34,058 bases of DNA from an uncultured archaeon (lineage in GTDB: Archaea > Asgardarchaeota > Lokiarchaeia > Sigyniarchaeales > SOKP01): the NCBI GenBank assembly GCA_964493715.1, contig CAZBPC010000019.1, forward strand, positions 12,715-46,772, given 5' to 3'. Below the pieces are notes generated by a model. It searched no databases. It was not told where the DNA came from and saw only the letters and a program-made list of their open reading frames with translations. Position numbers and translations under genes: made by a program. Within the stretch, counting starts at the first letter, position 1. Each line of letters begins with the position of its first letter. This document shows, piece by piece, positions 6,556 to 29,134 of the stretch.

Positions 6556-7392
6556 CTAATCCTCTTTTCTGTTTTCCATTATCCATTTTACAGCAAAATC
6601 AACCATTTCTCGTTGAGATAATAATCTAGCTTTAGCTTGTCCTACCTTTTGGGGTTGATAATTTATCGATTGTTCATAATCACTCCCAAGATCATTAAAA
6701 TCATCACTAATATTATCCAATTCATTCCAAGTTACCCAAGTTCTCTTTTTTTTTACATAAATTGCTGAACTGATAGCAATATATTTTTTTCCAGGATAAT
6801 CACATAAGTATTCTGCAAGATGTAATGAACTGTTAATTAAGTGTGGAACTCCTAATAATAAAATTTGACCGTATAATTTATAGATTTTTCCCAAAGGGGA
6901 ATCCATCCCAAGATCATTTTCTAACGGATGATTTTTAACTATTTTATTTGCATGTTTACCCCATGCTGCAAATGAAGTTGTTGGATGATTACTCCGAATA
7001 ACATTTGGGTATTTTCTAAACGTTTCTGAAATGGTCCCCATACCTCTTGTGGGGGCTTTATCTGGGTGGAATGCTGGGATATATTTTCGAATAGATGACC
7101 ACCATTCCTCTGGAACTGGAGGATAATTCCATCCTGATGGTTCCGTATTTCCTGAAGTAAAGGTAGGCATTATAAGGGTACCTTTTGGAGTAATTACATC
7201 CATTAAAGCATCAATTATGGCAACTGGACCTCCAACAGTCCATCCCAATTTGCTTAATGAACTGTGAACAATGAGTACAGCTCCTTCTTTTAATCCCATG
7301 GACTCAAAATCTTTTTTGAGTGAATCCAGAGTATTTGGTTTTATAGTATTTTTAACCGTATCAAATTCCTTATCAATATAACTCAATTTCAA
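6556..7392 (-). CDS. Aminoglycoside N(3)-acetyltransferase family protein (YokD-like)
   Basis: VHSSLS.LG...GG, GTLIMPTF, RSNHP..SFAAWG, SSLHLAE. Confidence 0.88.
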   Translation of the reverse strand: MKLSYIDKEFDTVKNTIKPNTLDSLKKDFESMGLKEGAVLIVHSSLSKLGWTVGGPVAIIDALMDVITPKGTLIMPTFTSGNTEPSGWNYPPVPEEWWSSIRKYIPAFHPDKAPTRGMGTISETFRKYPNVIRSNHPTTSFAAWGKHANKIVKNHPLENDLGMDSPLGKIYKLYGQILLLGVPHLINSSLHLAEYLCDYPGKKYIAISSAIYVKKKRTWVTWNELDNISDDFNDLGSDYEQSINYQPQKVGQAKARLLSQREMVDFAVKWIMENRKED

Positions 7393-7503
7393 TTCCCTTG
7401 GTAATCAATATGATATAAGAAATAATCCATAAACAAATATTAAGTTTCAATAAATATTCCACATTAATATCAAATTACTAACGAAATAAAATAACTGAAA
7501 AAC

Positions 7504-9301: not shown

Positions 9302-9428
9302 TCGATAGTTAAAATTTATATGAATTTAAGATTTTGCGCTTAATATTTTATAAATTCATTCATTTAACTATTCAATACGCAATTAGTAGAAATAATATGA
9401 ATAGATAATAAATAAAGAGGAGTTAATC

Positions 9429-11444
9429 ATTTCAGATAGAAAAAAATTATGGGAACCTTCAGAAGAATGGATAAAGAATGCTGAGATCACTAAATTTATC
9501 CAGAAAGTAAATAAGGATTTCGGTCAAAACATTAAAGATGGTAAAGAACTATATAAATGGTCTGTAGAAAAGATTGAAGATTTTTGGGCCGCTATGTGGG
9601 ATTTTGGAGGTATAATAGCTTCCAAAACGTACGATAAAGTGGTTGAGGATTTAAGCATCTTCCCCGGAACTAAATGGTTCCCTGGATCAAGATTAAATTT
9701 TGCTCAAAATCTACTCAAGTATAAAGATAACCAATTAGCTTTTATTTTTCAAGGAGAAACCAAGGTTTCGAAGCAAATTACCTATGAAGAACTATATAAA
9801 GAAGTTGCTCGCTTAGCGAAATCTCTCAAGAAAATGGGCGTTAAAGTGGGAGATCGAGTAGTGTCCTATATCCCAAACTTGATCGAAACTCCTATTGCCA
9901 TGTTAGCTACTGCTGCCATTGGAGCAACTTGGGCATCATGTGGAGCAGAATTACAACCGAACGCCGTGATTGATCGGTTTGGACAAATTGAGCCAAAAGT
10001 ACTCTTTACTGTCGATGGATATTTCTATAGAGATCAAGAGTTTAATATCACTGAAAATGCAAAAAGTGTGGTTGAAGCTATTCCTTCAATAGAAAAAGTA
10101 GTAGTAGTATCTTACATTACTAATGGAAAGCCAAAAATAAGCCACATTCCAAATGCGGTACATTGGGACGATTTTATCTCAAAAGAAGAGAACCCCACTC
10201 TTGAATTTGAGCAATTACCCTTTGATCATGCTTTATATGTGATGTTTTCATCTGGAACAACGGGAAAACCTAAATGTATGGTTCAAAGCGCTGGGGGTGT
10301 ATTAATTAATCATTTAAAAGAATTGATCTTATCTACTGACTGCAAGAGAAGCGATGTTATAAACTATATTACTGCGCCCTCATGGATGATGATATAAGTA
10401 ACCCTTATATCAGCCAAAATGTGGAACTGGCTTATCAGTGCCTTAGCAACGGGTGCAACAATATTTTTATATGATGGAAATCCACTATATCCAGAGCCAT
10501 TAAGGTTTTTTGAATTAATTGAAAAGCATAAAGTTTCTATATTTGGCACTAGTGCAGCCTATATTCATTACCTAATGGGTCTTAGGGTTAAGCCTGGAGA
10601 AAAATTTGATTTAAGTGCATTGAGAGAGATATCACAAACAGCATCTACATTATCACCTGAAGGATTTGAATTTGTATATAGGGATATTAAACAAGATTTG
10701 TTTTTTAACTCAATCAGTGGTGGTACAGATATTAATGGTTGCTTTGCTGGAGCAATACCAATATTACCCGTATATTCTGGTGAATTACAAGGTCGTGCGT
10801 TAGCGATGAAAGTCGAATCTTATGATGGCAGAGCAGAACCAATAGAAGATGAACAAGCTGAACTCGTATGTGAAGCCCCAGCACCTTCAATGCCTACCTA
10901 TTTTTGGGGCGATGATGAGAACATGACGAAATATAAAGTTGCTTATTTCGACTATTATAAGGATGTAGGCAAAAATGTGTGGCGTCATGGAGATTATATC
11001 GTTATTCATAGTGATACGGGAGGGATTACATTCTGGGGTAGGTCTGACGCAGTACTTAAACCAAGTGGCGTGCGCATTGGAACTGCGGAAATCTACAATG
11101 TTGTGGAACAGTTGCCGGAGATTGCTGATAGTTTAGTAATTGGCCAGCAATATGAAGGAGATATCCGAATTGTGATGTTTGTGCTTTTAAAAGAAGGTTA
11201 TAAATTAACTGACGAATTAAAAACAAAAATACGACAGACTTTACGTGAAAAAACCAGCCCACGACACGTTCCAAAATTAATAATTGAAGCACCCCCAGAT
11301 GGCATACCATATACTTTTAGTAATAAGAAAGTTGAGATTGCTGTCACGAAAATCATTCATGGAATGGAAGTAACTAATCGCGGAGCTCTTAGGAATCCAG
11401 AATCACTTGATTTTTATGAGGAAATGAAAGAAGAACTTCACTAA
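9429..11444 (+). CDS. aacS: Acetoacetyl-CoA synthetase (acetoacetate-CoA ligase), interrupted by a 30-nt insert or intron; 661 aa if spliced
   Basis: ORFs 9594-10397 and 10419-11444 are in the same frame. Motifs: LWEPS, WFPG.RLNFA, MFSSGTTGKPK, WMM|WNW, SISGGTD, WRHGD, GRSD, GVRIGTAEIY. The frame is open back to ATT 9429, behind GAGGAG. Confidence 0.9.
10389..10418 (+). other. Candidate bulge-helix-bulge (archaeal endonuclease-type) intron in mRNA
   Basis: Inner 9-bp stem TGATATAAG/CTTATATCA; 3-nt bulges TGA and AAA; central TGGA/GCCA helix; outer CCTCA/TGTGG helix. Cutting after the second nt of each bulge removes exactly 30 nt, including TAA, and gives SWMMWNW. Confidence 0.72.
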
Positions 11445-21958: not shown

Positions 21959-22609
21959 TTATTCAATGGTATACCCTTGTTCTTCCCATGCTTTTCGCAT
22001 AATGGCGTTATGCCTTAAATATTCATCAACTATACTTTTTGGTACGTTATTCAATGGACAACTAAAATTCGGACATTTTGAACAACCAAGAAAATGCATT
22101 GAAATGATCCATATTATTGAAAAAACCAGCGAGATTCCAAAATAAATGTACATTTCTGCTATGAGAAAGAAAACTAAAGGAAATCCCGCAAAAATTGAAA
22201 TACCAATTATGAATTGAATTCTTTCTGAGCGACTCATAGGTGCAGGATTATATTTCCAAGCTTTATAAAGGCCGTAATTCGCATAACACTTGAGTGTTTT
22301 ATCATCTTCAAATGCATAATAAGGACAATGACTGCAGAGAATTTTATTTTCCCAAACCTGGAAGAAAAACACTAAAAAACCAATATAACTTGAGATTAGG
22401 ACAATCAATAGAAGAATATTTAATCCTCCTGAAATAAAACTTTGTAAAAGTCCAATTACCAAAACTACCCATACGCTCAAAACGGGAATCATGAAATAGA
22501 TGGTGTCTTTTATTTCAAATTTACACATTAATTTTCCATTCACAGAGCATTGTTCGCAACTCTCTGGATCAAGATTGCAGATATTTTTCTGTTTATTATT
22601 TTCTTTCAA
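21959..22609 (-). CDS. Four-TM membrane protein with Cys clusters
   Basis: C..C N-terminus, CSHCPYY, CSKCPNFSCPLN; TTG start behind GAGGT. Confidence 0.75.
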   Translation of the reverse strand: MKENNKQKNICNLDPESCEQCSVNGKLMCKFEIKDTIYFMIPVLSVWVVLVIGLLQSFISGGLNILLLIVLISSYIGFLVFFFQVWENKILCSHCPYYAFEDDKTLKCYANYGLYKAWKYNPAPMSRSERIQFIIGISIFAGFPLVFFLIAEMYIYFGISLVFSIIWIISMHFLGCSKCPNFSCPLNNVPKSIVDEYLRHNAIMRKAWEEQGYTIE

Positions 22610-26245: not shown

Positions 26246-29134
26246 ATGTACAATGCGCGTGAAATTGAAAAAAAATGGCAACATAGATGGCAGGAGGAAA
26301 AAATTTTTGAAGCAAATTGTGATTTGAAAAAAGCAAAAAAATTTATAACAATCCCTTACCCTTACGCTTCAGGTCCACAACATATAGGACATGGAAGAAG
26401 TTATGCAAATGGAGACATTTTTACTCGCTATTATCGAGCGAAAGGATTTAATGTATTACTCCCAATGGCATTTCATATTACTGGAACTCCAGTATTAGCG
26501 ATATCATCAGCTATTGAACGTGGAGAAAAGAAGATAGTTGATAGAATGTATGATTATGTGTCCCTTCACACATCGAATGAAAGTAAAATCAAGCAAATCG
26601 TGGACGAATTCGTCGACCCATGGAATGTGGTGAAATATTTTTCTAATGCTATCAAGGAAGATTTCATATCTCTTGGAATGAGCATAGATTGGAGAAGAGA
26701 ATTTACCACGGGAGACCCTACTTATAACAAGTTTATTGAATGGCAGTTCCAGAAGCTGATGGATAAAGGATACATAGAGAAAGGGGCATATCCCATATTA
26801 TTTTGTCCCCGAGATAATAACGCTGTTGGGGAAGATGACATAGCAAGTGGAGATGAATTAGACTTGAAGATCAATGAATTTATTTGTATCAAATTTCCCT
26901 ATGAAGATGGATATTTAGTACCTGCAACTTTAAGACCGGAAACCATTTTTGGAGCTACTAACATTTGGGTAAATCCAAAGGGGATTTATGTCTGGATTCT
27001 AATAAATGGAGAAAAATGGATAGTTTCAGAGGAAGCTGTCGAATTATTAAGAAATCAAGGAAAAAATGTGGAAATTCTCGAGAAATTCTCTGGAAAATTT
27101 CTGATTGGAAAAAAAGCAAGACTGATAGGAGGTAATAGAAGCTTACCAATACTGCCGGGTGATTTTGTAGATACCTCCACTGCAACTGGTGTTGTTTATT
27201 CAGTTCCCGCTCACGCTCCCTATGATTATATTGCTTTATTGGATTTACAGAAAAACGAAGAGATTATTGAACAGTATCATCTTGATAAAGCTGCGATTAA
27301 AAGTATAAAACCCATTGTTATTATCAAATCAAAAGGAATCAGTGATATTCCAGCTAAAGGTTATTGTGAAAAATTTGGGGTTGAAACTCAATTAGATAAA
27401 GAAAAATTAGATAGGGCAACTGTAGAACTATACAAGAGTGAATTCTATAATGGAATTCTAAATGAAAAATGTGGAATATACAATAAAAAATCTGTGAATG
27501 AAGCAGTTAACGAAGTAAAACAAGATTTAACCAATGAGGGAAAAATTGATAGGGTTTATGTTCCCGTAACTCGAAATTTGAAGTGTCGTTGTGGTGAAAA
27601 GATTATAGTAACGATTTTAGAAGATCAGTGGTTTCTCAATTTCAATTCGGGAGTCTGGAAGGAAAAGGCCTTCGAATGTCTTGAAAAAATGGAAATCGTT
27701 CCGAAAAAATATCGGCAAAATTTCGTGAATGTATTTCATTGGTTAGAAAAAAGACCATGCGCAAGAAAACGGGGATTAGGTACAAAATTACCCTTTGATA
27801 AAAATTGGATCATTGAATCATTAAGTGACTCAACTATTTACATGAGTTTCTACACCATCATTCACATAATAAATAGGAATAAGATTGAGGCGGATCATTT
27901 AATTCCAGAAGTATTTGATTTCGTTTTTTTGGAAAAAGGTGATATTAATCGGGTATCTAAATTGTCTCAAATTCCAAAGGCAGTATTAAGCGAGATGCAC
28001 TCCGAATTTTCATACTGGTATCCTGTTGATCATAGACATACCGCAATAATGCACATCTCTAATCACTTGAGCTTTTACCTATTCCATCATGCAGGAATTT
28101 TTCCAGAAAAATATTGGCCAAGATTGTTAACATTAATAGAACCCGTCATTGTTGAAGGTGAAAAAATGGGAAAATCTAAAGGAAATCTAATTTCATTAGC
28201 AGAAATTCGAGAAAAGTACTCCACAGATTTATTTCGCTTTTACATATCACATAGTGCAGATCTTGGTGCTAGCATGGATTGGAGAGAGAAGAAAATCCAA
28301 TCTGTTTCAAACCATATTGAAAAATTTTATAGGTTTGTCAGAGAAAACATAACTAAATCGAAGCAAATTGATCTGAAAATTAATGATATTGAATTAGATT
28401 ATTCCAGATTAATTCTCTCAAAAATAGTTAGGAATTTCATAAATGCTGCAAACGCTCTAAAAAAGTTTAATCTACGGAAGTACCTTCAAATTGGATTTTA
28501 TGAGACTTTTAGTTTGATCCAAGAATTCAAAAAAAATGCCGAGGATAAATCTGAGTTTATGGTTGTGTTTAATATTATGATATCAGATTGGTTAAAATTA
28601 TTATCTTTAACCCTTCCTCATGTTTGTGAAGAACTATGGGAATATGCTGAACTGGAAGGATTTGTTTCAAATACTTTATGGGGTGATTTTAATGAAAAAT
28701 ATCTTGATCAAGATATAGAAAATGAATACGAATACATATCTTCTATCATAGAGGATATTCTAAACATACAAAAAATTGCTAATACACAAAACAATGACAA
28801 GATTTTCATTTACACATCTCCAAAGTGGAAAATAGAAGTTTTAAATGTCATAATTTCAAAAAAAGGCGATTTTAATTTAATTTTGACCGAACTCAAGAAA
28901 GATATTAATATTATGAAAAATAAACAACTCATCCCATTTGTCAAGTCTCAAATTAAAAATAGAGTTTGGGAAATCAATTATCAAAATATGGACGAAAATA
29001 AACTCATAAAGAAATTCAATAACTTTATTGAGAAACGAGTTGGAAAAAAGATTGTTTTAAATTCTACACACGATCCCACTGGAAAAGCCTTGAAAGCCAA
29101 TCCATTTAAACCGGCAATCTATATAGGAGATTAA
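26246..29134 (+). CDS. leuS: Leucine--tRNA ligase, archaeal/eukaryotic type
   Basis: PYPY.SG..HIGH, DWRREFTT, ATLRPETIFGATN, SVPAHAPYDY, IESLSDSTIY, KMGKSKGN, KA.PFKPAIY. Confidence 0.96.
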   Translation: MYNAREIEKKWQHRWQEEKIFEANCDLKKAKKFITIPYPYASGPQHIGHGRSYANGDIFTRYYRAKGFNVLLPMAFHITGTPVLAISSAIERGEKKIVDRMYDYVSLHTSNESKIKQIVDEFVDPWNVVKYFSNAIKEDFISLGMSIDWRREFTTGDPTYNKFIEWQFQKLMDKGYIEKGAYPILFCPRDNNAVGEDDIASGDELDLKINEFICIKFPYEDGYLVPATLRPETIFGATNIWVNPKGIYVWILINGEKWIVSEEAVELLRNQGKNVEILEKFSGKFLIGKKARLIGGNRSLPILPGDFVDTSTATGVVYSVPAHAPYDYIALLDLQKNEEIIEQYHLDKAAIKSIKPIVIIKSKGISDIPAKGYCEKFGVETQLDKEKLDRATVELYKSEFYNGILNEKCGIYNKKSVNEAVNEVKQDLTNEGKIDRVYVPVTRNLKCRCGEKIIVTILEDQWFLNFNSGVWKEKAFECLEKMEIVPKKYRQNFVNVFHWLEKRPCARKRGLGTKLPFDKNWIIESLSDSTIYMSFYTIIHIINRNKIEADHLIPEVFDFVFLEKGDINRVSKLSQIPKAVLSEMHSEFSYWYPVDHRHTAIMHISNHLSFYLFHHAGIFPEKYWPRLLTLIEPVIVEGEKMGKSKGNLISLAEIREKYSTDLFRFYISHSADLGASMDWREKKIQSVSNHIEKFYRFVRENITKSKQIDLKINDIELDYSRLILSKIVRNFINAANALKKFNLRKYLQIGFYETFSLIQEFKKNAEDKSEFMVVFNIMISDWLKLLSLTLPHVCEELWEYAELEGFVSNTLWGDFNEKYLDQDIENEYEYISSIIEDILNIQKIANTQNNDKIFIYTSPKWKIEVLNVIISKKGDFNLILTELKKDINIMKNKQLIPFVKSQIKNRVWEINYQNMDENKLIKKFNNFIEKRVGKKIVLNSTHDPTGKALKANPFKPAIYIGD

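What the first reader, a model, noticed from the sequence alone, without database searches (positions are those of the whole stretch)
10378..10424. Candidate bulge-helix-bulge intron inside the mRNA of a metabolic enzyme (acetoacetyl-CoA synthetase)
Seen: the two halves of aacS are in the same frame, separated by 30 extra nt that contain TAA and lie inside the conserved family motif WMMWNW. The RNA can form an outer helix CCUCA(10378-82)/UGUGG(10420-24, one U-U), a central 4-pair helix UGGA(10383-86)/GCCA(10413-16, one A-G), two 3-nt bulges UGA(10387-89) and AAA(10417-19), and a perfect 9-bp inner stem UGAUAUAAG/CUUAUAUCA with a 5-nt loop. Established: the archaeal splicing endonuclease EndA cuts BHB motifs after the second nt of each bulge and RtcB ligates the exons; such introns are typical of tRNA and rRNA, and the well-known mRNA case is crenarchaeal cbf5. 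Applying that rule (cuts after 10388 and 10418) removes exactly 30 nt and yields TCA TGG ATG ATG TGG AAC TGG = SWMMWNW, a 661-aa enzyme. Inference: endonuclease-type mRNA splicing of an ordinary metabolic gene in an apparent Asgard archaeon, possibly a regulatory switch. This would parallel eukaryotic HAC1/XBP1 splicing, and annotation would miscall the gene a pseudogene. Alternative: a 27-nt insertion scar with an ATG duplication.
Basis: partly seen in the sequence, partly recalled or inferred. Interest (0 to 1): 0.95.

Follow-up and report, generated by a model that had tools for sequence, protein, structure and literature searches.

The report
Endonuclease-type intron in archaeal aacS gene
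A 30-base hairpin insert that breaks an Asgard archaeon's acetoacetyl-CoA synthetase gene has the shape of the introns archaea cut out of tRNAs, is kept with compensating changes in dozens of related genomes, and is one of at least nine such inserts in this genome's protein genes, so these archaea very probably splice messenger RNAs far more often than was known.

Summary
Window 10389-10418 is a 30-nt insert with an in-frame TAA and a perfect 9-bp hairpin, inside the SWMMWNW motif of aacS. All 19 orthologs from relatives lack it.

It is not a scar, pseudogene or assembly artefact.
- The same site holds an insert of exactly 30 nt in 43 other aacS loci (21 species genomes of one Asgard family, 22 metagenome contigs).
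- Six of nine stem pairs show compensatory changes.
- Both exons are under strong purifying selection (dN/dS 0.03-0.11, dS near saturation).

The bulge-helix-bulge (BHB) cut rule restores the ortholog sequence exactly.

A whole-genome scan with the same geometry found eight more homology-validated inserts of 29-31 nt: the only RtcB ligase gene, NadE, a LeuRS-like gene, a VWA gene and four sites in thiolase genes. The same scan recovered tRNA introns of the same architecture at 11 tRNA loci. The genome encodes two EndA subunits and RtcB.

No RNA data could be obtained, so splicing is inferred rather than shown.

In the literature I searched, cbf5 is the only coding-region mRNA BHB intron; Haloferax has one in a 5' UTR. 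I conclude this is an EndA/RtcB-spliced mRNA intron (confidence 0.85), one of a family of mini-introns. Any regulatory role is untested.

The parts
9429..10388 (+). aacS exon 1 (320 codons if ATT 9429 is the start; the frame is open from 9405)
   Evidence: open frame, no ATG/GTG/TTG before 9594; residues from 9594 onward match acetoacetate-CoA ligase profile positions 56-320; relatives have ATG, or a conserved ATT/ATC, at the equivalent codon. The start codon is inferred.
10378..10382 (+). Outer helix h, 5' strand (exon), pairs with 10420-10424
   Evidence: 4 of 5 column pairs are standard pairs in 33-39 of 39 rows, and the middle pair is U-U in 38 of 39. The sequence is exon, so little covariation is possible.
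10383..10386 (+). Central 4-position helix H, 5' strand (exon, Trp codon plus A)
   Evidence: three pairs are invariant (UGG with CCA). The fourth is A-G in 37 of 39 rows, A-U in 1 (L073) and A-A in 1 (L096).
10387..10389 (+). 5' three-nt bulge; predicted EndA cut after 10388
   Evidence: Geometry. The cut position is inferred from the established BHB rule and gives the ortholog sequence.
10389..10418 (+). 30-nt intron (1 nt + 9-bp stem + 5-nt loop + 9 nt + 4 nt + 2 nt)
   Evidence: Absent from 19 of 19 orthologs in relatives. Present with exactly 30 nt in 43 other aacS loci. Present in DNA contigs of runs X1, X3 and X7.
10390..10412 (+). Inner helix h': 9-bp stem (10390-98 with 10404-12) and 5-nt loop (10399-10403)
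   Evidence: 94.6% of cells paired, 6 of 9 pairs changed on both sides, 0 of 500 shuffles reach the covariation score.
10395..10397 (+). In-frame TAA inside the intron
   Evidence: a TAA or TAG at this codon in all 39 distinct rows.
10413..10416 (+). Central helix H, 3' strand (intron)
   Evidence: One search shows it could instead pair with the downstream TGGCT (10428-10432).
10417..10419 (+). 3' three-nt bulge; predicted cut after 10418
   Evidence: AAA is invariant in 39 of 39 rows.
10420..10424 (+). Outer helix h, 3' strand (exon)
10419..11444 (+). aacS exon 2 (341 codons plus stop)
   Evidence: matches profile positions 320-654 of 657; dN/dS 0.03-0.11 against other intron-bearing alleles.

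Best explanation

Proposed mechanism. The transcript folds so that the exon sequence around the first Trp codon pairs with the 3' end of the intron (central helix). The intron forms a 9-bp hairpin, and the two exons pair across the junction. This presents two 3-nt bulges on opposite strands. The heteromeric splicing endonuclease EndA cuts after the second nucleotide of each bulge (after 10388 and after 10418). RtcB then joins the exons, giving an mRNA for a full-length acetoacetate-CoA ligase with the intact SWMMWNW motif.

What is shown: the anatomy; its conservation and covariation; selection on the exons; the enzymes' genes; and eight more such introns in this genome's protein genes, next to tRNA introns of the same build.

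What is inferred: that cutting and joining actually happen in the cell, and at these nucleotides.

Most likely these introns are tolerated, occasionally gained and precisely lost elements of the same class as the organism's tRNA introns. A regulatory role is possible but untested.
For: 1. Exact excision. The BHB cuts restore the sequence that 19 of 19 intron-less orthologs encode.

2. Conservation. The pattern scans returned 46 metagenome and 36 genome loci. Of these, 22 and 21 are aacS, each with an insert of exactly 30 nt at this site. In 398 genomes of the phylum, 21 carry it, all in one family and spread over 8 genera; 0 of 265 outside that family do.

3. Structure. In 39 distinct rows, the inner stem is 94.6% paired with 6 of 9 pairs changed on both sides. 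The three central UGG/CCA pairs and the AAA bulge are invariant. None of 500 shuffles reaches the observed covariation score, and slid controls pair in only 29-47% of cells against 85.5% observed.

4. The gene is alive. Both exons are open in 27 other full-length loci, with dN/dS 0.027-0.114 and dS from 0.6 to saturation. Divergent strains in DNA contigs keep the insert without gaps.

5. Machinery. There are two PF01974 EndA genes and RtcB. Asgard EndA is the broad-specificity (alpha-beta)2 type (PMC5829648, passages read).

6. It is not a one-off. The same geometry and cut rule restore conserved motifs in eight further places:
- RtcB, profile 46|48.
- A LeuRS-like gene, 46|48.
- NadE, 155|156.
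- Thiolases, 215|217, 54|57 and 306|309, plus a second site in one of them.
- A VWA gene whose 7 intron-less orthologs read exactly the predicted junction.
All nine places carry an in-frame stop or a frameshift. RtcB is single-copy, and its intron is also in a second species' assembly.

7. Positive control. The same scan, followed by ARAGORN on the excised sequence, finds tRNA introns of 26-32 nt with this geometry at 11 tRNA loci, at canonical and non-canonical positions. One example is the 30-nt 9+5+9 intron of tRNA-Gly at position 37/38.

8. Exon flanks. Third-codon-position diversity within 10 codons of the junction falls to 0.28 and 0.21 in intron-bearing alleles. It is about 0.5 elsewhere, and 0.44 and 0.37 in intron-less alleles.
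Against: - No RNA evidence. No RNA run was listed for this sequence and only DNA contigs could be laid, so neither a spliced junction nor a circular intron has been seen.
- The central helix is imperfect. Its fourth position is A-G in 37 of 39 rows, and the outer helix has a U-U.
- Thermodynamic folding of the single sequence predicts only the hairpin and is not better than shuffles (z = -1.04).
- RNAalifold pairs the intron's AGCCA with the downstream TGGCT instead of the upstream UGGA. The only two informative variants split one each way (L073 favours the BHB, L096 the competitor).
- The reduced synonymous diversity in the exon flanks also affects columns that do not pair in the model: G at column 11 in 28/39 versus 2/19, and C at column 62 in 36/39 versus 5/19. 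Co-conversion during intron spread, or relatedness, could explain it instead of the outer helix.
- Two intron-bearing loci have a shortened exon 2 (L035 306 codons, L101 284 codons) and may be decaying copies.
- My genome scan assumed the BHB geometry, so the eight other introns were found by that assumption. Their independent support is homology only.
Confidence: 0.85

Rival explanations
1. Programmed translational bypass. The ribosome takes off at an ATG before the hairpin, skips 30 nt of unspliced mRNA and lands on the ATG at 10419-21, as in phage T4 gene 60 or the mitochondrial 'byp' elements.
For: In aacS the insert is flanked by identical ATG codons. A stop follows two codons after the ATG at 10389-91, and a hairpin begins at the take-off site. 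The stop is conserved in 39 of 39 rows.
Against: The other eight inserts of the same architecture have no matching take-off and landing codons, and two are not multiples of three (29 and 31 nt). The fixed distances of 1 nt before the stem and 6 nt after it, and the conserved pairing of the intron's CCA with the exon's UGG, are BHB features with no role in bypass. tRNA genes, which are not translated, carry the same elements.
Confidence: 0.03
2. Split enzyme. The insert divides aacS into two separately translated polypeptides (stop at 10395-97, restart at ATG 10419) that assemble into an active enzyme. The hairpin serves translational coupling.
For: Exon 2 happens to begin with ATG. Both halves are under purifying selection, which this model also predicts.
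Against: The break lies inside a conserved motif. There is no Shine-Dalgarno-like sequence in the insert. In the other eight cases exon 2 mostly does not begin at a start codon, and several junctions split a codon (phase 1 or 2). The strict 30-nt length and BHB geometry would be unexplained.
Confidence: 0.05
3. Dead gene or insertion scar. A 27-nt insertion with a 3-nt target duplication inactivated aacS.
For: There is an in-frame stop, an ATG repeat at both ends, and no canonical start codon before 9594. Two of the intron-bearing loci have a shortened exon 2.
Against: dN/dS is 0.03-0.11 in both exons at near-saturated dS among 27 other intron-bearing alleles. The insert is retained with compensatory changes in 43 loci and 8 genera. 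Boundary repeats are not general: 3 nt in aacS, 2 nt in RtcB, and none in the LeuRS-like gene or NadE. The ATT/ATC start is itself conserved in a subset of relatives. The single RtcB gene of a complete genome with many tRNA introns carries the same kind of insert.
Confidence: 0.03
4. Assembly or sequencing artefact.
For: The genome is a metagenome-assembled genome of 160 contigs. Three of the nine inserts lie within about 330 nt of a contig end.
Against: Logan contigs of three runs from different studies contain the insert (X1 and X3 across it, X7 reaching into it), including two divergent strain variants. No joint lacking it was seen. Independent assemblies of 21 species genomes carry it.
Confidence: 0.005

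Closest known systems
cbf5 pre-mRNA intron of Crenarchaeota (Watanabe et al. 2002, seen only as a citation; Yokobori et al. 2009, PMC2738675, search listing and abstract seen)
   Same: A BHB-type intron inside the coding region of a protein gene, removed by the hetero-oligomeric splicing endonuclease. It is patchily present among relatives, with gain and loss.
   Different: The host lineage differs (an Asgard family, not Crenarchaeota) and so does the gene. cbf5 itself is uninterrupted here. Here there are at least nine introns in one genome, including several in one thiolase gene, with a uniform build of about 30 nt shared with the tRNA introns. Splicing of cbf5 was shown experimentally; here it is inferred.
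Archaeal tRNA BHB introns, abundant in some Asgard archaea (PMC11291895 and preprint 10.64898/2026.10.13.758758, passages read)
   Same: Same geometry (h, 3-nt bulge, 4-bp H, 3-nt bulge, h'). Same size class in this genome (26-32 nt, for example the 30-nt 9+5+9 intron of tRNA-Gly). Same presumed enzymes.
   Different: The host RNA is an mRNA, so the exon half of the motif must be built from codons. Failure to splice gives a truncated or frameshifted protein rather than a misfolded tRNA.
BHB intron in the 5' UTR of Haloferax volcanii HVO_1309 (PMC7714728, passages read)
   Same: An mRNA substrate of the archaeal splicing endonuclease.
   Different: That intron lies in the untranslated leader and does not interrupt the reading frame. 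It was validated in vivo and in vitro.
HAC1/XBP1 unconventional splicing (IRE1 plus tRNA ligase; recalled, and mentioned in PMC13149111)
   Same: Spliceosome-independent endonuclease-and-ligase splicing of a short intron in a cytoplasmic mRNA that changes the reading frame. In metazoans the ligase is RtcB.
   Different: The endonuclease (IRE1, not EndA) and the RNA motif (twin stem-loops with 7-nt loops, not BHB) are different. The stress-regulated role known for HAC1/XBP1 is untested here.
Translational bypass elements (T4 gene 60; mitochondrial byps; recalled)
   Same: Short in-frame-breaking inserts with a hairpin and a stop. In aacS there are also identical codons at both ends.
   Different: There are no matching codons in the other eight inserts, and the same elements occur in tRNA genes.

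Membership tests
Archaeal BHB intron (EndA/RtcB-spliced) | [quoted passage not shown] | tested here: met
   The geometry is exact. The central helix has 3 invariant Watson-Crick pairs plus A-G in 37 of 39 rows (A-U in 1), which is a relaxed form. It is 4 of 4 in 7 of the other 8 introns of the genome.
Archaeal BHB intron (EndA/RtcB-spliced) | Flanking helices h (exon with exon) and h' (within the intron) | tested here: met
   h' is a 9-bp stem, 94.6% paired, with 6 of 9 pairs showing compensatory changes. h has 4 of 5 pairs.
Archaeal BHB intron (EndA/RtcB-spliced) | Cuts within the bulges leave a functional mature RNA | tested here: met
   In silico only. Cuts after 10388 and 10418 give the sequence of 19 of 19 intron-less orthologs. 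The same rule restores the motifs of RtcB, NadE, the thiolases, the VWA gene and the LeuRS-like gene.
Archaeal BHB intron (EndA/RtcB-spliced) | The host encodes the splicing endonuclease and an RtcB-type ligase | tested here: met
   Two PF01974 genes, at 102 and 68 bits. One RtcB gene at 484 bits, itself interrupted by a 29-nt insert.
Archaeal BHB intron (EndA/RtcB-spliced) | Spliced RNA, a circular or linear excised intron, or in vitro cleavage observed | not testable with these tools
   No RNA run was listed; only DNA contigs were laid.
cbf5-type pre-mRNA intron | The intron is located in the cbf5 (pseudouridine synthase) gene | tested here: not met
   cbf5 of this genome matches TIGR00425 positions 5-319 in one open frame of 343 aa. 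The present intron works like the cbf5 intron but is not that intron.
Translational bypass element | Matching take-off and landing codons flanking the skipped stretch | tested here: inconclusive
   Met in aacS (ATG and ATG) but not in the other eight inserts of the same architecture.
Pseudogene | Relaxed selection or further lesions in both halves | tested here: not met
   dN/dS is 0.027-0.114 in both exons. Both exons are open in 27 other full-length loci.
IRE1-type (HAC1/XBP1) splicing | Twin stem-loops with conserved 7-nt loops cut by an IRE1 RNase | not tested
   The structure here is a single hairpin within a BHB. I made no search for IRE1. Only the ligase class is shared.

The most novel reading that the evidence does not exclude
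A population of uniform mini-introns of about 30 nt, of the same build as the tRNA introns, has spread into protein-coding genes of a family of Lokiarchaeia-type Asgard archaea.

This one genome has at least nine. They sit in aacS, several thiolase genes, NadE, a LeuRS-like gene, a VWA gene, and the sole gene for RtcB, the very ligase needed to splice them. That last case would make RtcB expression depend on pre-existing RtcB protein.

The introns are gained, and precisely lost, between closely related species. If this is right, routine protein-enzyme splicing of mRNAs, with intron gain and loss dynamics, exists in the closest prokaryotic relatives of eukaryotes.
Probability: 0.75. Interest if true: 0.92.

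Novelty: new variant of a known kind. Interest (0 to 1): 0.86.

Why it matters
For more than twenty years the only BHB intron known inside an archaeal coding region has been the one in crenarchaeal cbf5. One further case is known in a Haloferax 5' UTR. This is stated in PMC7714728, and my six literature searches found nothing newer.

Here a single Asgard genome shows at least nine such introns, in ordinary metabolic genes and in RNA-processing genes. One of them, in aacS, is maintained across eight genera with compensatory changes.

If RNA data confirm splicing, four things follow.
- Gene callers systematically mis-annotate these genes as pseudogenes or split genes in Asgard metagenome-assembled genomes.
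- The substrate range of EndA/RtcB in the closest relatives of eukaryotes includes many mRNAs.
- Intron gain, precise loss and site preference become testable in a prokaryote.
- An RtcB gene that needs RtcB for its own expression would be a self-sustaining loop worth studying.

It also gives a natural archaeal counterpart to endonuclease-and-ligase mRNA splicing of the HAC1/XBP1 kind.

Tried and rejected
Repeated or mobile element. The hairpin is unique in the genome at up to 3 mismatches, so it is not a multi-copy element by sequence.

RNA evidence. No RNA holder was listed. The four runs laid were DNA contigs only. They showed no joint lacking the 30 nt, which says nothing about RNA. X12 had no cover at the insert.

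Single-sequence thermodynamics. Not informative.

Unbiased consensus folding. RNAalifold recovers the hairpin but proposes a competing outer helix.

Outer-helix test by synonymous sites. CCC is 33/39 versus 3/19 and TCA is 36/39 versus 4/19, but non-pairing columns are biased too. I therefore do not count this as specific support; only the local drop in diversity is reported.

Genome scans.
- First scan: 25,614 geometry hits, 79 of which restore an open frame. Among hits with a 9-bp stem, 5 of 400 restore a frame; most with stems of 5-8 bp look like neighbouring genes.
- Relaxed scans: 15,539 hits with 92 frame-restoring, and 25,576 hits with 84 frame-restoring, 52 of them new. Together these added four validated cases.
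- All other frame-restoring hits were judged by eye from junction peptides and dropped without a homology test, so some real introns may have been discarded and the count of nine is a lower bound.
- A tenth, relaxed 31-nt candidate near C28:22400 does not fit the strict geometry.

Window 7033-7062. This is a BHB-like hit but lies antisense to an intact ORF at 6556-7404(-), so it is a false positive.

'1 TAA' flags in VWA orthologs. These lie upstream of the start codon and are not introns.

Essentiality argument. It fails for the LeuRS-like gene and NadE, because intact second copies exist. It holds only for RtcB.

Gene tree. The careful search did not finish; the quick IQ-TREE tree was used.

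Regex parsing limits.
- In one search only 24 of 30 RtcB loci matched my regex. Six were not evaluated: L114, L122, L123, L129, L131 and L134.
- In one search only 11 of 30 VWA loci matched.

Rfam and ARAGORN found nothing in the window.

Supplementary files of papers were not opened. The supplements of the 2026 Asgard tRNA-intron preprint and of PMC11291895 might list non-tRNA introns that I could not see.

Claims that something is not in print rest on searches, and on passages read.
Full report
**1. The observation**

An acetoacetate-CoA ligase gene is interrupted at window 10389-10418 by 30 nt that carry an in-frame TAA (10395-97) and a perfect 9-bp hairpin (10390-98 with 10404-12, loop 10399-10403).

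The two halves match the NCBIfam profile NF002937 up to and from position 320. Translating through gives ...APSWMMI*VTLISAKMWNW....

In 19 of 19 ortholog loci taken from relatives (64-89% identity in exon 2), the motif APSWMMWNW is uninterrupted. So the extra 30 nt are an insertion relative to them.

Because ATG stands at both ends, four cut registers give the same product. The BHB rule selects 10389-10418.

The gene has no ATG/GTG/TTG in frame before 9594. Relatives have either ATG or a conserved ATT/ATC at that codon, so this is not a sign of decay.

**2. It is real DNA and it is old**

Logan contigs of runs from different studies contain the insert. An identical contig and a variant with 33 differences in 305 nt and no gap are in X1. 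Variants with 33 and 49 differences and no gaps are in X3. A contig from X7 reaches into the insert. No contig lacked it.

A degenerate pattern for the exon flanks with a 27-33-nt gap found 46 metagenome and 36 genome loci.
- Of these, 22 and 21 are aacS, and every one has an insert of exactly 30 nt.
- The remaining 39 loci have no aacS context.

In 398 genomes of the phylum the insert is in 21, all in one GTDB family (20 of 132 besides this genome) and spread over 8 genera. It is in 0 of 265 genomes outside that family. The record titles mostly read Promethearchaeota.

**3. The structure is under selection**

In 39 distinct 71-nt rows, counted:
- The inner stem is paired in 94.6% of cells, and 6 of 9 pairs changed on both sides.
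- The three UGG/CCA pairs of the central helix and the AAA bulge never vary.
- None of 500 shuffles reaches the observed covariation.
- Sliding the partner strand drops pairing from 85.5% to 29-47%.

Weak points of the structure:
- The fourth central pair is A-G in 37 of 39 rows.
- The outer helix has a U-U.
- RNAfold predicts only the hairpin (z = -1.04).
- RNAalifold pairs the intron's AGCCA with a downstream TGGCT rather than the upstream UGGA. The two informative variants split one each way.

A stop codon (TAA or TAG) occupies the third intron codon in all 39 rows.

**4. The gene is alive**

Both exons are open in 27 other full-length intron-bearing loci. Against the window's allele, dN/dS is 0.027-0.114 in each exon, while dS runs from 0.6 to saturation (my own Nei-Gojobori script). 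Two loci have a shortened exon 2 (L035, L101).

On a quick maximum-likelihood tree of 29 intron-bearing and 17 intron-less alleles, the two kinds are interleaved: 9 changes by parsimony, and at least 5 forced by well-supported branches (the careful search did not finish). This means repeated precise loss, gain, or exchange by recombination.

Synonymous diversity among intron-bearing alleles falls to 0.28 and 0.21 within 10 codons of the junction. It is about 0.5 elsewhere, and 0.44 and 0.37 in intron-less alleles. This fits constraint on the exon part of the motif, but also fits short co-conversion tracts, because non-pairing columns are biased too.

**5. The machinery and the wider pattern**

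The genome (100% complete by markers) has two EndA-family genes and one RtcB gene.

The RtcB match came back in two pieces 29 nt apart. The gap is an insert with a 4-bp central helix, two 3-nt bulges, a 9-bp stem and a 4-nt loop. The BHB cuts restore PGGVGY|DINCGVR (Pfam profile 46|48). A second species of the genus has the same insert with one change, and 22 other parsed loci have none.

I then scanned the whole genome for this geometry and asked where excision fuses two long open frames that the unspliced DNA breaks. Nine places are backed by homology (table):
- aacS.
- RtcB.
- A LeuRS-like gene (profile 46|48).
- NadE (155|156).
- Thiolase genes at four sites (54|57, 306|309 and 215|217; a second site in the same gene).
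- A VWA gene. Its seven intron-less orthologs read exactly the predicted junction, and three other species have an insert at the same site, two with covarying stems.

Eight of the nine are 29-30 nt and one is 31 nt. All break the frame or carry a stop. Only aacS and RtcB have short boundary repeats. One thiolase gene holds at least two, and probably three, introns.

The count is a lower bound. The scan assumed a strict architecture, and I discarded the other frame-restoring hits by eye.

**6. Positive control**

The same scan, followed by ARAGORN on the excised sequences, recovered tRNA genes spanning the junction at 11 loci (19 overlapping excisions out of 102,558 candidates). Their introns are 26-32 nt and sit at canonical and non-canonical positions. 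The tRNA-Gly intron at position 37/38 has exactly the 1+9+5+9+4+2 build of the aacS insert. So the protein-gene inserts belong to the same structural class as this organism's bona fide endonuclease introns.

**7. Rivals**

- Translational bypass fits aacS alone (ATG at both ends). It does not fit the other eight inserts or the tRNA cases.
- A split two-subunit enzyme is contradicted by split codons and the lack of start codons at most second exons.
- A pseudogene is contradicted by the selection data.
- An artefact is contradicted by the independent assemblies.

What remains open is whether splicing is constitutive or regulatory, and how the introns arrive.

**8. Comparison with what is known**

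In the papers I could search, the BHB introns reported in archaeal mRNAs are these:
- The crenarchaeal cbf5 intron (PMC2738675, abstract). cbf5 is uninterrupted in this genome.
- One in the 5' UTR of Haloferax HVO_1309. PMC7714728 states in a passage I read that cbf5 was the only other example.

Asgard archaea are reported to have the broad-specificity (alpha-beta)2 EndA (PMC5829648, passages) and very many tRNA introns (PMC11291895, passages; preprint 10.64898/2026.10.13.758758, abstract and passages). Neither of the latter two papers mentions protein-gene introns in the text I could see, and supplements were closed. Six searches found no report of BHB introns in Asgard protein-coding genes.

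**9. Verdict**

It is a new variant of a known kind: the cbf5-type mechanism, but in Asgard archaea, in many genes at once, with a uniform mini-intron build shared with tRNA introns, and including the ligase gene itself. Direct RNA or biochemical proof is still missing.

Noticed in passing
G000 C2:12136-12164(-) (L108); same site in G001 (L112): The only RtcB ligase gene of the genome is interrupted by a frameshifting 29-nt BHB-type insert in the GVGY|DINCG motif. Making RtcB would then need RtcB. Present in 2 of 24 parsed loci of the genus.
   Followed up: partly
G000 C39:8748-8777(+), C44:26027-26056(+), C28:34412-34441(+), C28:22709-22738(+), C28:23007-23036(+), C120:4198-4228(+), C145:299-328(-): Seven further inserts of 30-31 nt with the same geometry, in NadE, a LeuRS-like gene, a VWA gene and thiolase genes. 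Each restores a conserved motif or profile contiguity when excised by the BHB rule.
   Followed up: yes
G000 C28:~22398-22430(+): A probable third intron (about 31 nt, 9-bp stem, 3-nt loop) in the same thiolase gene, between GVEK and LMDEGG. It fits only a relaxed BHB with an internal loop, and its exact boundaries are not settled.
   Followed up: partly
window 9426-9431: aacS appears to start at ATT (or ATC), behind a GGAG-like stretch at 9415-9422. The same non-canonical codon is conserved in a subset of relatives, while others have ATG at the same place.
   Followed up: partly
window 10412-10416 with 10428-10432: The intron's AGCCA can also pair with TGGCT of exon 2 (second Trp codon). This helix competes with the BHB central helix. 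It could be chance, from the two Trp codons, or an alternative conformer.
   Followed up: partly
G000 C145:299-328 and C28:23007-23036: Two thiolase introns at different gene positions share 20 of 30 nucleotides, hinting at copying of an intron between sites. No statistics were done beyond the pairwise count.
   Followed up: no
G000 C120:4198 and C28:23007: Two thiolase paralogs carry introns 4 nt apart at the same HDCFT motif (phase 1 versus phase 2). This suggests a preferred site or intron sliding.
   Followed up: no
G000 C44, C28, C145 contig ends: Three of the nine introns lie within about 330 nt of a contig end. Strain mixtures with and without an intron may break the assembly there.
   Followed up: no
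window 26261-29125(+): An intact archaeal-type LeuRS (966-aa open frame) lies in the window. The intron-bearing LeuRS-like gene on C44/C45 is a second copy.
   Followed up: partly
L052, L060, L061, L105 (record titled Candidatus Njordibacter): In a bacterial aacS-like locus the pattern hit a 32-nt stretch where APWM is followed by a stop and then by GWMMWNW. It looks like a short local duplication, not a BHB insert.
   Followed up: no
window 7033-7062(+): A 30-nt stretch fits the BHB geometry well but lies antisense to an intact ORF (6556-7404, minus strand). It is a false positive that shows the geometry alone is not specific.
   Followed up: yes
L172 (G051), VWA gene junction: At the same codon where G000 has a 30-nt intron, this species has a different insert of about 33 nt. 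The site seems to have been occupied more than once, or the intron has been remodelled.
   Followed up: no
G006:C235, G011:C43, G009:C264, G024:C429: Short fragments (about 30-47 aa) resembling the C-terminal end of aacS occur in four relatives. In two of them (G011, G009) the fragment lies on the same contig as the full gene. In two (G009, G024) the fragment contains stops.
   Followed up: no
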